Source: a virus (taxonomy: Duplodnaviria; Heunggongvirae; Uroviricota; Caudoviricetes). Taken from it: a stretch of DNA of 64,000 nt. Below, one piece after another: positions 9,001 through 12,000 of this stretch (positions within the stretch are counted from its first letter, which is position 1; each line of letters begins with the position of its first letter). The stretch lies in the IMG/VR virus record IMGVR_UViG_637000107_000010. One strand, given 5' to 3'. The position numbers are program-made.

Positions 9001-12000
9001 GTGGATCAGCGCTTCCTGTTCGGCCAGGCGCTGTTTCAGCAAGGAAGATGTCGTCAGAAGAGATGTCGTTCATAAGCCCGTATTTTACCGGGCTTATTCT
9101 GTGACAACCAGGATAAAGAGATTTACAGCATGGTCAGGGAGGTCAGCAGCCGCTTAGGCTGTCGCCAGTCGATACCTTCCAGCAGCATCGCCAGCTGCGC
9201 CTGCGTAAGGAACACTTTGCCATCACGGGCTGACGGCCAGGCGAAGCGCCCACGCTCCAGCCGTTTGGTCAGGAGGCACAGTCCGTCACCGGTGGACCAC
9301 AGCAGTTTAACCTGACTGCCGCTGCGGCCCCGGAAAATGAAAACATGGCCGGACATGGGATCGTCTTTCAGCGCCGTTTGTACTTTCGCAGCCAGGCCGT
9401 TGAAGCCATTTCTCATATCGGTGATACCGGCAACCAGCCAAATTTTGGTCCCGGAAGGTAACGGGATCATCGCTTCAGTTCCTGTATCAGCAGAGTCAGG
9501 AGCTTTTCGCTGACATTGCCATTGAAGCGGAGCGTCCCGTGCCGGAACGTTACCTCACAGCTGATACTGAGGGTTTCCGGGTCCTCTGCGANCGATTCTG
9601 GCTGTTCGGCAGCTGCATCGANAGTCACAGGAAGTAGCTGGGGGCTCTCTGAAGAAGGTAATAGCAGCTTTCCCTCGCGCCATTGTTGTCGCCATTTGAA
9701 CAACAGATTTGCGTTAATGCCATTTTCAAGAGCAAGTTTTGAGATGGATATCCCGGGTTCACAGGAGGCAGCAACGAGCTGCTGTTTAAATTCGGGAGGA
9801 TAATTAGGGCAGCCTTTTCGCCTGCCGGGAGTCACATTTTTCTGCATATCTGATACTTTGGTTCCCACTACTTATTTGGTGGACACCACTTTGTCTAATT
9901 CGTCAGATTCTGACCAGACGGTTCAGGCTGTACGCTTACCTGATGTCTCACCGGCGCTGGTATCGAAGGTCACCGATGCCGTTATGGAGCAGGTAGTCGA
10001 ATGGCAAAACCGGCCACTGGATGCGGTCTATCCCATTGTTTATCTTGACTGTATTGTCCTGAAGGTTCGGCAGGACAGTCGCGTAATCAATAAATCCGTA
10101 TTCCTCGCACTGGGTATCAATATCGAAGGCCAGAAAGAGTTACTGGGTATGTGGCTGGCCGAAAACGAGGGAGCGAAGTTCTGGCTCAATGTGCTGACTG
10201 AACTAAAAAACCGCGGCCTGAACGATATTCTCATAGCCTGTGTCGACGGGCTGAAAGGCTTCCCGGACGCTATCAACACGGTGTATCCGGAAGCCCGCAT
10301 CCAGCTGTGCATCGTGCATATGGTGCGCAACAGCCTGCGGTTCGTTTCCTGGAAGGACTACAAAGCCGTCACCCGCGACCTGAAAGCCATCTACCAGGCC
10401 CCCACAGAAGAAGCAGGCCAGCAGGCGCTGGAAGCGTTCGCCAGCGCCTGGGACAGTCGCTACCCGCAGATAAGCCGGAGCTGGCAGGCAAACTGGACCA
10501 ACCTGGCGATGTTCTTCGCTTACCCGGCAGATATCCGCAAAGTCATCTACACAACCAACGCCATCGAGTCGCTGAACAGCGTAATCCGGCATGCCATCAA
10601 AAAACGCAAGGTGTTCCCGACGGATGACTCAGTGAAAAAGGTCGTGTGGCTGGCAATCCAGGCGGCTTCACAGAAATGGACGATGCCACTGCGGGACTGG
10701 CGTATGGCAATGAGCCGCTTTATTATCGAGTTCGGTGACCGCCTGGACGGTCACTTCTGAGAAAAGGCATTTACACAGAATCGTGTACAGGGTCGATTTT
10801 ACTCGTTAATTAGCGAACAAACCACTCGTCAGCAGACTCCCAGGTATCTTTCAGCGTCTCCTGAACAAAAGTTTTTGCAGAATCTTTATCGGCGGTGCGA
10901 GTAACTGAAAGGCCATCGTTGCTGGTGGATTTGATGATCACTTCTACATCGTCATAACGTTTACTGACACGTCGCAGCATTTCTTGTTGCAGGGCAGGAA
11001 CAGAACCTTTTGGCATTTTGTTGATTTTGGCTGCGGGGTATCTGTGGGGCATATATGGGACATAAAAAGGCCTCAAATAAACAGCAAAATCGAGATTAGG
11101 GATTTTTAGAAAAAATACAACCATCTGAAAAAACTTAGAAAACACCCAAAAACCCACAGAATAGTAAAAAACATCTATGAATTATGGATTTCAAGAGTCA
11201 TTCAATCTAACTAATTGATAAATAAAAAATTAACTTTTCATCGCTTCGTTATGGGGCATGGTTGGGGCAAACTCGCTTAACTGTGTATTTAACAGCGTTA
11301 CCTGCGCATTATTATTTTCTGACATCCATTTCCCGTACACCTGAAACACCATTTGCGCATCTGCATGGCCCATCTGGTTTGCAATGAATGCCGGGTTAGC
11401 TCCTGCTGTTAACGACCAGCAGGCATAAGTGTGTCTCGACTGATACGATTTGCGATGGCGGATTCCGGCACGCTTTACCGCTGCGTCCCACATCTGCCTT
11501 ATTGAGTCAACGGTAAAATGGTCGCCATAATTTTTTACTTTCGCTGACACTTCAGGTTGAAAAACAAAGGTACATTTTTGTTTCTCTGTTCTGCCGAATT
11601 CTCTGAGGTGAACATCGATGATATGCTCTTTGCTCAGTCTCGTTAGTGCCATCTGACTCCGGAGAGCGTCGATTGCGGGCTTAATAAGGTGAATCACACG
11701 ATTGGTTCCCGCCTGTGTTTTTGGTACTGTAAAACGGTCTTTTGCCAGATTTCTTCTGATTATCATTCTGCCATTGCGCAAGATGGTTGCGGTTTTTCTT
11801 CATCATTTTCTTCTTCTGTTTCCTGCTTAGCAGACAGTTCGCGGTTAACTTCTTCCAGGATATCTTTTTCCGGTGTATGTCGTGCAGCAGTGAGAGTTTC
11901 CTTGCTGGGGTTCTCGTGATCAGTCTCCGTTAAGTAGGCGTTGATATACCCCTGAAGGCGTCCCGGGTAGTGATAAAACTCAGGGTGAGCGCTCCGGATA

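What the first reader, a model, noticed from the sequence alone, without database searches (positions are those of the whole stretch)
10790..11195. Duplicated ~400-bp DinI-containing end block marks a tandem-prophage boundary and the chromosomal junction
The block 10790-11192 recurs at 62320-62725. The first copy is followed by the integrase fragment (internal, attP-like boundary between two prophage segments); the second is followed by an MFS transporter gene lacking its first ~35 codons (prophage-chromosome junction). The point where identity ends (…ATGAATTATGGATTTC) is a candidate att core, and the transporter gene appears to be the integration target.
Basis: partly seen in the sequence, partly recalled or inferred. 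Interest (0 to 1): 0.45.

Follow-up and report, generated by a model that had tools for sequence, protein, structure and literature searches.

The report
Known O157:H7 tandem prophage junction (ydfJ)
The duplicated 398-bp block is the shared right end (a dinI-like gene plus one arm of the phage attachment site) of two lambda-like prophages sitting head-to-tail in the ydfJ transporter gene of E. coli O157:H7, an arrangement already annotated as Sp12/Sp11 in the Sakai reference genome, so it is real but ordinary.

Summary
Window 10795-11192 and 62327-62725 are identical at 398/398 bases. The only difference is one inserted N in copy 2.

The block consists of:
- a dinI-like gene (Pfam PF06183);
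- the 129-nt P arm of a lambdoid attachment site;
- an 11-bp core, TTATGGATTTC.

Copy 1 is followed by a P' arm and the 3' 546 nt of a 1296-nt tyrosine-integrase gene, giving a P-O-P' internal junction. Copy 2 is followed by ydfJ from codon 29, giving a P-O-B' attR.

A prophage-free E. coli has intact ydfJ with the same 11-mer (B-O-B'). Many genomes carry the predicted attL (B-O-P') at 100% identity.

The window is E. coli O157:H7. The Sakai reference already annotates these boundaries as prophage Sp11 (2158311-2204088) and Sp12 (2204089-2255027), and the literature describes two lambda-like prophages in tandem at ydfJ.

- The core is 11 nt, not 16.
- 28 codons are missing, not about 35.
- The left limit of copy 1 is set by an IS256-family insertion.
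- The ydfJ 5' part, attL, rspB and most of rspA are deleted in Sakai and EDL933.
- Both integrases are truncated.

Verdict: interpretation supported, already known, low interest.

The parts
7024..10794 (.). IS256-family element (named ISEic2 in the Sakai annotation), itself split by an ISEc8 (IS66-family) insertion at about 7492-9940. Its outer right end abuts copy 1 and sets the left limit of the 100%-identity block.
   Evidence: The right terminal repeat is at 10766-10794. An imperfect left repeat is at about 7024-7052. Pfam Transposase_mut matches ORF 9858-10760. The EDL933 and Sakai annotations show IS256 partial / ISEc8 / IS256 partial.
10795..11192 (.). Copy 1 of the duplicated end block. 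It is the right end of the left prophage (Sp12-type): 15 nt of 3' flank, the dinI-like gene, the P arm and the core.
   Evidence: 398/398 identity to copy 2 and to EDL933 and Sakai.
10810..11052 (-). dinI-like gene, copy 1 (80 aa).
   Evidence: Pfam PF06183 DinI, E = 1.2e-17, profile positions 1-63 of 63. RefSeq WP_001120551.1 'DinI-like family protein'.
11053..11181 (.). P arm of the attachment site at the internal junction.
   Evidence: About 84% conserved with the P arm of a Qin-type ydfJ prophage from 11046 to the core. Identical in copy 2.
11182..11192 (.). att core TTATGGATTTC at the internal P-O-P' junction (Sp12|Sp11 boundary).
   Evidence: The same 11-mer is found in attB, attL, attR and the internal junctions of six genomes. 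It occurs twice in the window against 0.03 expected.
11193..11229 (.). P' arm of the Sp11-type allele, between the core and the integrase stop codon. It probably extends into the int 3' coding region.
   Evidence: Identical to the P' side of attL in strains 14EC001 and PV15-279. It differs from the Sp12-type P' arm.
11230..11775 (-). Integrase remnant of the right prophage (Sp11-type). It keeps only the C-terminal ~181 codons and lacks the arm-binding domain, the core-binding domain and the first catalytic Arg region.
   Evidence: PF00589. It equals nt 751-1296 of the 1296-nt int of strain 14EC001 at 99.3%. Annotated 'missing N-terminus' and as pseudogene ECs_2217.
11776..13007 (-). Exonuclease VIII (RecE-type) gene remnant fused to int' by an internal deletion that removed the int 5' part, xis and the exo 3' part.
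   Evidence: PF06630. Annotated 'RecE family ... missing C-terminus' and as pseudogene ECs_2216. No xis lies between int' and exo, unlike L009.
60039..62180 (+). Three nleG-family type III effector genes (Sakai nleG2-3, nleG6-2, nleG5-2). This is the cargo region between the tail-fibre genes and the dinI-like gene of the right prophage.
   Evidence: ORFs. PF06416 for 61539-62180. Sakai names.
62327..62725 (.). Copy 2 of the duplicated end block. It is the right end of the right prophage (Sp11-type).
62342..62585 (-). dinI-like gene, copy 2. An N at 62347 breaks the last codons in this assembly only.
   Evidence: It is intact as WP_001120551.1 in finished EDL933.
62715..62725 (.). att core TTATGGATTTC at attR (P-O-B').
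62717..64000 (+). ydfJ remnant (MHS-family MFS transporter) from Met29 to the stop codon. The first 28 codons are missing.
   Evidence: PF07690/PF00083. Annotated 'ydfJ ... missing N-terminus' and as pseudogene ECs_2152. The intact gene is in L004.

Best explanation
The two copies are the identical right-end modules of two different lambda-like prophages integrated head-to-tail into one attachment site inside ydfJ of E. coli O157:H7. Each module carries a dinI-like gene, the P arm of attP and an 11-bp core. The prophages are Sp12-type on the left and Sp11-type on the right.

Shown:
- A tyrosine-integrase system crossed over within the core TTATGGATTTC, which spans codons 27-30 of ydfJ.
- The junctions therefore read P-O-P' at 11182-11192 between the prophages and P-O-B' at 62715-62725 at the chromosome.

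Inferred:
- One phage integrated first, producing attL and attR.
- The second phage, with the same integrase specificity, then recombined its attP with one of those hybrid sites. That necessarily leaves an attP-like junction between the two prophages.

Later decay froze the array:
- Sp11 lost the int 5' part, xis and part of exo.
- Sp12 lost the int 3' part together with attL, ydfJ codons 1-28, rspB and most of rspA.
- An IS256-family element, later hit by ISEc8, landed just outside the dinI-like gene of Sp12.

The insertion does not rebuild ydfJ, so the gene is left as a 5'-truncated pseudogene.
For: - The repeat is exact.
- All four arm combinations share the same 11-mer. B-O-B' is in prophage-free strain WCHEC005237. 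B-O-P' is in 14EC001 and PV15-279. P-O-P' is in the window, EDL933 and Sakai. P-O-B' is in the window, EDL933, Sakai and a Qin-type lysogen.
- A synthetic attL built from attB-left plus the window's P' side is found at 100% identity over 600 nt. At least 80% of it is covered in 2674 of 5426 complete genomes.
- The integrase remnant lies next to the P' arm and is transcribed toward the core, as in lambda.
- The two prophages are different phages. One has a lambda-type head and P-type replication. The other has an HK97-like head and a DnaC-type loader (PMC2669165).
- The P' arms are allele-specific while the P arms are identical. This fits crossover inside the core rather than in the flanks.
- The Sakai annotation places the Sp11 and Sp12 boundaries at these points.
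- PMC9997748 states that two lambda-like prophages are integrated in tandem at ydfJ in O157:H7.
- PMC2669165 reports Int disrupted in Sp11 and Sp12. [quoted passage not shown]
Against: - No experiment here shows Int-mediated recombination at this core.
- Both resident integrases are truncated, so the events are historical inference.
- attL of the array is deleted in EDL933 and Sakai. The full set of junctions therefore cannot be shown within one O157:H7 genome of this type.
- The order of acquisition is unknown.
- The interior of the window between the two copies is not collinear with finished EDL933 and looks chimeric. The 51.5-kb spacing in the window is therefore not reliable; the finished genome gives 45.8 kb.
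Confidence: 0.92

Rival explanations
1. The tandem arrangement was made by homologous (RecA-type) recombination between related prophages or phage genomes. For example, a second phage could have recombined into the resident prophage through the shared dinI/P-arm block or the int region, instead of by integrase-mediated site-specific recombination at a hybrid att site.
For: O157:H7 prophages recombine homologously very often. EDL933 itself carries a prophage-to-prophage inversion joining the ompW prophage to Sp12. PMC9997748 describes a second prophage at yehV that entered by homologous recombination, and frequent prophage-mediated inversions. The 398-bp block is a perfect substrate for such recombination.
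Against: The internal junction is exactly P-O-P'. Each prophage keeps its own P' allele right up to the core, in both observed orders. The gene order on both sides is the canonical int-to-tail-to-cargo order expected from Campbell integration. Homologous recombination within the P arm would give the same sequence, so this rival cannot be strictly excluded.
Confidence: 0.06
2. The duplication is a segmental or IS-mediated duplication of a single prophage end, or an assembly artefact of a draft sequence rich in Ns. On this reading it does not mark two integration events.
For: The window contains 122 Ns. Its interior (26.5-59.4 kb) is not collinear with the finished genome. IS elements abut copy 1.
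Against: Both copies, with the same flanks, are present in finished long-read or curated genomes: EDL933 CP008957 and Sakai NC_002695.2. The DNA on the two sides belongs to clearly different phages. The IS lies outside the block and only truncates the homology on the left.
Confidence: 0.02

Closest known systems
Prophages Sp11 and Sp12 of E. coli O157:H7 Sakai (tandem at ydfJ) and their EDL933 counterparts
   Same: It is the same locus and the same sequence. The block is 398/398 identical to Sakai's Sp11 end. The annotated Sp11 (2158311-2204088) and Sp12 (2204089-2255027) boundaries fall in the two cores. The same int and exo pseudogenes, nleG cargo, ISEic2/ISEc8 insertions and ydfJ pseudogene are present. 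The tandem status is stated in PMC9997748, and the defective Int of both prophages in PMC2669165.
   Different: In Sakai the Sp12 dinI-like copy is additionally cut by an IS629 (IS1203) insertion at 2204371, which is absent here. In EDL933-type genomes Sp12 is split by a large inversion, so the prophage left of copy 1 begins at ompW. The window's own interior differs from finished EDL933.
Qin cryptic prophage of E. coli K-12-type strains (inserted in ydfJ)
   Same: It uses the same target gene, the same 11-bp core and the same 1284-nt ydfJ remnant. Its P arm is homologous (~84%) over about 147 nt up to the core.
   Different: The Qin-type element has no dinI-like gene or nleG cargo next to the P arm. 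It has ydfK, pinQ and tfaQ instead. It is a single degraded prophage, not a tandem pair.
Lambda tandem polylysogens (Campbell model), and the Sp10-Rac tandem integration via attR shown experimentally
   Same: There is an attP-like (P-O-P') junction between two prophages and a normal attR at the chromosome. Int lies next to the P' arm. The second phage uses a hybrid att site of the resident prophage (precedent in PMC2669165).
   Different: The two prophages here are different phages that share only the integration specificity and the end module. Both integrases are now truncated and attL is deleted, so the array can no longer resolve itself. Sp11 and Sp12 did not circularize in PMC2669165.

Membership tests
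Campbell-type lambdoid prophage junctions (attB/attL/attR plus an attP-like junction in a tandem array) | A short core sequence identical in the empty site, both prophage-chromosome junctions and the inter-prophage junction | tested here: met
   TTATGGATTTC is found in B-O-B' (L004), B-O-P' (L008, L009), P-O-P' (window 11182, L001, L011) and P-O-B' (window 62715, L002, L005, L010).
Campbell-type lambdoid prophage junctions (attB/attL/attR plus an attP-like junction in a tandem array) | Tyrosine integrase gene adjacent to the P' arm and transcribed toward the core | tested here: met
   The PF00589 remnant at 11230-11775 (minus strand) has its stop codon 37 nt from the core. A full-length 431-aa int and xis sit in the same position in strain 14EC001.
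Campbell-type lambdoid prophage junctions (attB/attL/attR plus an attP-like junction in a tandem array) | Two complete or near-complete, distinguishable phage genomes in the same orientation on either side of the internal junction | tested here: met
   The EDL933 and Sakai annotations show this. The replication and head modules are distinct (PMC2669165).
Campbell-type lambdoid prophage junctions (attB/attL/attR plus an attP-like junction in a tandem array) | Integrase-catalysed recombination at the core, with arm-type Int, IHF and Xis binding sites | not testable with these tools
   Only weak repeated 8-mers were seen in the arms, for example TTAGAAAA twice in the P arm. Both resident int genes are truncated.
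DinI-like family (Pfam PF06183) | Significant full-length match to the DinI profile | tested here: met
   E = 1.2e-17, 64.4 bits against a cut-off of 24.2, profile positions 1-63 of 63.
DinI-like family (Pfam PF06183) | SOS (LexA-box) control, as for chromosomal dinI. This is not required for family membership. | tested here: not met
   No CTGT-N8-ACAG with up to 1 mismatch was found in 10991-11230. The region upstream of the gene is the att P arm.
YdfJ (MHS-family MFS transporter) disrupted by prophage insertion | Orthology to ydfJ in the conserved rspB-ydfJ-ydfI-ydfZ-rspR context, with the 5' end replaced by phage DNA | tested here: met
   The remnant is followed by ydfI, ydfZ, rspR and ydfG. 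The intact 1368-nt gene lies downstream of rspB in L004. The remnant starts at Met29. MFS_1 and Sugar_tr domains were found.
Sakai prophages Sp11/Sp12 (specific known elements) | Same boundaries, gene content and chromosomal site | tested here: met
   Window 4772-26539 and 59463-64000 are 99.4-99.8% identical to finished EDL933 at the corresponding locus.

The most novel reading that the evidence does not exclude
The inter-prophage P-O-P' site may not be just a fossil. In two O157:H7 genomes (PV15-279, F3113) the same two prophages sit in the opposite order: attL-Sp11-POP'-Sp12, with ydfJ 5' and rspAB intact. In Sakai and EDL933 the order is Sp12-POP'-Sp11-attR. This would fit an Sp12-type phage that excised through attL x POP' and re-integrated at attR ('leapfrogging'), or one that was acquired independently into alternative hybrid att sites of a resident Sp11. 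The still-intact POP' and attR sites could also allow precise loss or mobilisation of the nleG/pchB-carrying Sp11 if an integrase of this specificity is supplied in trans by an incoming phage.
Probability: 0.3. Interest if true: 0.3.

Novelty: already known. Interest (0 to 1): 0.08.

Why it matters
It matters little beyond correct annotation. The finding pins the Sp12|Sp11 and Sp11|ydfJ boundaries to an 11-bp core. It explains why ydfJ is a pseudogene in O157:H7, as it is in K-12 with Qin. It also identifies a 398-bp perfect direct repeat that is an obvious substrate for the spontaneous Sp11-Sp12 deletions and rearrangements reported in O157:H7. Those events affect type III effector (nleG) and regulator (pchB) content. 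The ydfJ site is a very common prophage hot spot: an attL of this type is present in about half of complete E. coli genomes.

Tried and rejected
(1) I looked for the ydfJ 5' fragment in EDL933 where the prophage array should begin. Instead I found that the left prophage starts at ompW. The ompW-type right end lies about 390 kb away in inverted orientation. The true Sp12 left end is an int 5' fragment fused to rspA codon ~29 next to ynfA. I did it with a prophage-free strain and with other lysogens instead.

(2) I looked for a clean target-site duplication around the IS256-family element, to show that it simply interrupts a longer homology. There are only about 25 nt of loosely similar sequence left of the IS and no exact duplication, so this is inconclusive.

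(3) I searched for a LexA box upstream of the dinI-like gene and found none.

(4) I looked for repeated arm-type motifs in the P and P' arms. Only two or three 8-mer repeats turned up, which is not convincing.

(5) I tried to read Chen et al. 2013 (PMC3592242) on Sp11-Sp12 deletions, but it is not held in the library.

(6) I considered an assembly artefact for the repeat. I rejected this because both copies occur in finished genomes. An artefact is, however, likely for the window's interior.

Full report
**Observation**

A self-comparison of the window shows that 10795-11192 and 62327-62725 are the same sequence. There are 399 aligned columns, no mismatches and one gap, and the gap is an ambiguous base (N at 62347) in copy 2.

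The block is present at 398/398 identity at both corresponding positions of the finished EDL933 genome and in Sakai. It is therefore a genuine feature and not a product of the N-rich assembly the window comes from.

**What the block is made of**

On the minus strand it carries an 80-codon dinI-like gene at 10810-11052. This matches Pfam PF06183 with E = 1.2e-17 over the full profile, and RefSeq names it WP_001120551.1. The remaining 140 nt (11053-11192) are non-coding and end in TTATGGATTTC.

That non-coding stretch is about 84% conserved with the end of a Qin-type prophage that also abuts ydfJ. The conservation starts at 11046, which is almost exactly at the dinI start codon. So this stretch is the P arm of an attachment site plus its core. 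No LexA box lies upstream of the dinI-like gene.

**What follows each copy**

- After copy 1 come 37 nt and then the stop codon of a minus-strand tyrosine-recombinase ORF (PF00589). Against a full-length 1296-nt integrase from strain 14EC001, this ORF retains only nt 751-1296, at 99.3% identity. It is fused to an exonuclease VIII gene remnant (PF06630). The int 5' part, xis and the exo 3' part have therefore been deleted.
- After copy 2 the sequence continues directly into ydfJ (MFS_1/Sugar_tr), followed in EDL933 by ydfI, ydfZ, rspR and ydfG.

**The att core**

A prophage-free strain (WCHEC005237) has an intact 1368-nt ydfJ downstream of rspB. Around codons 27-30 it reads ...GCGCTTGAATTTATGGATTTCCAGTTATATT....

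Comparing all junctions base by base gives the four combinations expected from Campbell integration, all sharing exactly TTATGGATTTC:

| Junction type | Where found |
|---|---|
| B-O-B' | empty site (L004) |
| B-O-P' | strains 14EC001 and PV15-279 |
| P-O-P' | window 11182-11192, EDL933, Sakai |
| P-O-B' | window 62715-62725, EDL933, Sakai, a Qin-type lysogen |

The 11-mer occurs only at these two places in the window, against 0.03 expected.

A synthetic attL, built from the left half of attB plus the window's P' side, is found at 100% identity over 600 nt in many genomes. At least 80% of it is covered in 2674 of 5426 complete E. coli genomes.

Two corrections follow. The ydfJ remnant lacks 28 codons, not about 35. 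The remnant's ATG at 62717 is Met29 of the intact protein. The phage supplies no in-frame replacement for the lost 5' end, and both RefSeq and the Sakai annotation call the gene a pseudogene.

**Identity of the locus**

The window is E. coli O157:H7. The Sakai reference annotates 'prophage Sp11, lambda-like phage' at 2158311-2204088 and 'prophage Sp12, lambda-like phage' at 2204089-2255027. The features around these boundaries are:
- ydfJ pseudogene ECs_2152, which abuts Sp11;
- integrase pseudogene ECs_2217 and the DinI-like gene ECs_2218, which flank the Sp11/Sp12 boundary;
- the truncated intR (ECs_5736), which sits next to ynfA at the far end.

PMC9997748 states that two lambda-like prophages are integrated in tandem at ydfJ in O157:H7. 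It cites earlier work on spontaneous deletions within Sp11-Sp12.

PMC2669165 reports the following:
- Int is disrupted in Sp11 and Sp12.
- Sp11 lacks Xis.
- The two prophages have different replication modules (lambda P-type versus DnaC-type) and different head modules.
- Neither prophage circularises.

All of this matches the anatomy seen here. The same paper shows experimentally that Sp10 can integrate in tandem with Rac by using Rac's attR as attB, which is the mechanism inferred here.

**Mechanism**

- Shown: the junction sequences, the arm combinations, the position and orientation of int, and the two distinct phage genomes.
- Inferred: two phages sharing one integrase specificity integrated successively, the second into a hybrid att site of the first. 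This necessarily leaves a P-O-P' junction.
- Supporting detail: the P' arms are allele-specific (Sp11-type versus Sp12-type, diverging 9 nt after the core), whereas the P arm and dinI module are identical. This is what crossover within the core predicts.
- Later decay: Sp11 lost int 5'-xis-exo 3'. Sp12 lost int 3'-attL-ydfJ codons 1-28-rspB-most of rspA. In EDL933 the int fragment runs straight into rspA codon ~29 and then ynfA, and Sakai is the same.
- An IS256-family element (ISEic2), itself hit by ISEc8, lies just outside the Sp12 dinI-like gene. Its outer end at 10794 is what terminates the identity on the left of copy 1.

**Complications outside the finding**

In EDL933-type genomes the prophage to the left of copy 1 starts at ompW with a different, full-length integrase. 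The matching ompW remnant with the nleA/nleH/nleF/espM1 cargo, and the Sp12 early region, lie about 390-460 kb away in inverted orientation. A prophage-to-prophage inversion has therefore split Sp12. PMC9997748 reports such terminus-centred, prophage-mediated inversions as frequent.

The window itself is collinear with finished EDL933 only at 4772-26539 and 59463-64000. Its interior matches another O157 prophage better. No complete genome has that interior as one contiguous piece, and the Ns cluster at the transitions. This suggests a chimeric older assembly. The spacing between copies is 51.5 kb in the window but 45.8 kb in finished EDL933, and Sakai annotates Sp11 as 45,778 bp.

**Variation between lineages**

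Two O157:H7 genomes (PV15-279, F3113) retain rspAB, the ydfJ 5' part and attL. They carry the pair in the opposite order, attL-Sp11-POP'-Sp12. The Sp11 int' there is 100% identical to the window's up to 11763, and the Sp12 int is split by ISEc8.

DinI-POP'-int junctions of this kind occur in 239 complete genomes, including O26:H11 strain 11368.

The swapped order is the only mildly unexpected observation. It could reflect independent integration into attL versus attR, or excision followed by re-integration. I did not find it discussed in the papers I could read.

**Verdict**

The feature is the already-annotated Sp12|Sp11|ydfJ arrangement of O157:H7, which is a textbook Campbell-type tandem prophage. 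It is already known and of low interest.

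Noticed in passing
window 26500-59460 (also 1-4771): The interior of the window is not collinear with the finished EDL933 genome, although both junction regions are (4772-26539 and 59463-64000 at 99.4-99.8%). Window 26.5-48 kb matches best (73% coverage, 99.5%) a prophage carrying ISEc8 at a different chromosomal site in other O157:H7 genomes. None of the 5426 complete genomes has it as one contiguous piece. Ns cluster at 24-32 kb and 52-60 kb. This is probably a chimeric or collapsed assembly of near-identical lambdoid prophages, or a real recombinant. 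The copy spacing is 51,533 nt here against about 45,781 nt in finished EDL933.
   Followed up: partly
L008 20289; L013 30534 (O157:H7 PV15-279, NZ_AP018488.1); also F3113 (NZ_CP038374.1): In two O157:H7 genomes the same two prophages are in the opposite order: rspB-ydfJ5'-attL-int'(Sp11)-Sp11-nleGx3-DinI-POP'-int(Sp12, split by ISEc8)-Sp12. rspAB and the ydfJ 5' part are intact. Either the Sp12-type phage was acquired independently into a different hybrid att site, or it excised and re-integrated.
   Followed up: partly
L003 17052-18866; L006 18717-18842; L007 36656-37404 (EDL933 NZ_CP008957.1): EDL933 carries a large inversion with endpoints in the ompW prophage and Sp12. On one side ompW is followed directly by a full-length int/xis and a prophage that ends at the window's copy 1. 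The ompW remnant with the nleA/nleH1-2/nleF/espM1 cargo, and the Sp12 early region, lie 390-460 kb away in inverted orientation.
   Followed up: partly
L007 37318-37404 (EDL933); L012 4332-5286 (Sakai): In EDL933 and Sakai a deletion fuses Sp12 int nt ~689 to rspA codon ~29. It removes the int 3' half, attL, ydfJ codons 1-28, rspB and most of rspA. These O157:H7 strains therefore lack the starvation-sensing rspAB operon.
   Followed up: partly
window 11763-11775 versus L008 20870: In PV15-279 an IS629 (IS1203) end sits in Sp11 int' only 12 nt from the point where the window's int' is fused to the exo remnant. This may hint that IS629-associated deletion created the int'-exo joint, or it may be coincidence.
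   Followed up: no
window 7024-10794: There are nested insertion sequences. An IS256-family element (ISEic2) has imperfect terminal repeats and no clean target duplication, and it is split by a complete ISEc8 (7492-9940). Further ISEc8 copies or fragments lie at 2187-3462 and 38937-41376.
   Followed up: partly
window 4772-5597 versus 59945-60768; 4895-4969, 5765-5839, 60067-60141: The tail-fibre 3' ends and the first nleG cassettes of the two prophages are 77% identical. A 75-nt element with a GC-rich hairpin (CCGGAGTCCGGCTCCGG followed by a T run, terminator-like) is repeated in front of successive nleG genes. It looks like a cassette boundary for the nleG paralogues.
   Followed up: no
window 58476-59795: The tail-fibre ORF contains collagen-like Gly-X-Y repeats and is riddled with Ns in this assembly. 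Collagen-like prophage tail-fibre proteins of O157:H7 are described in PMC3368898.
   Followed up: no
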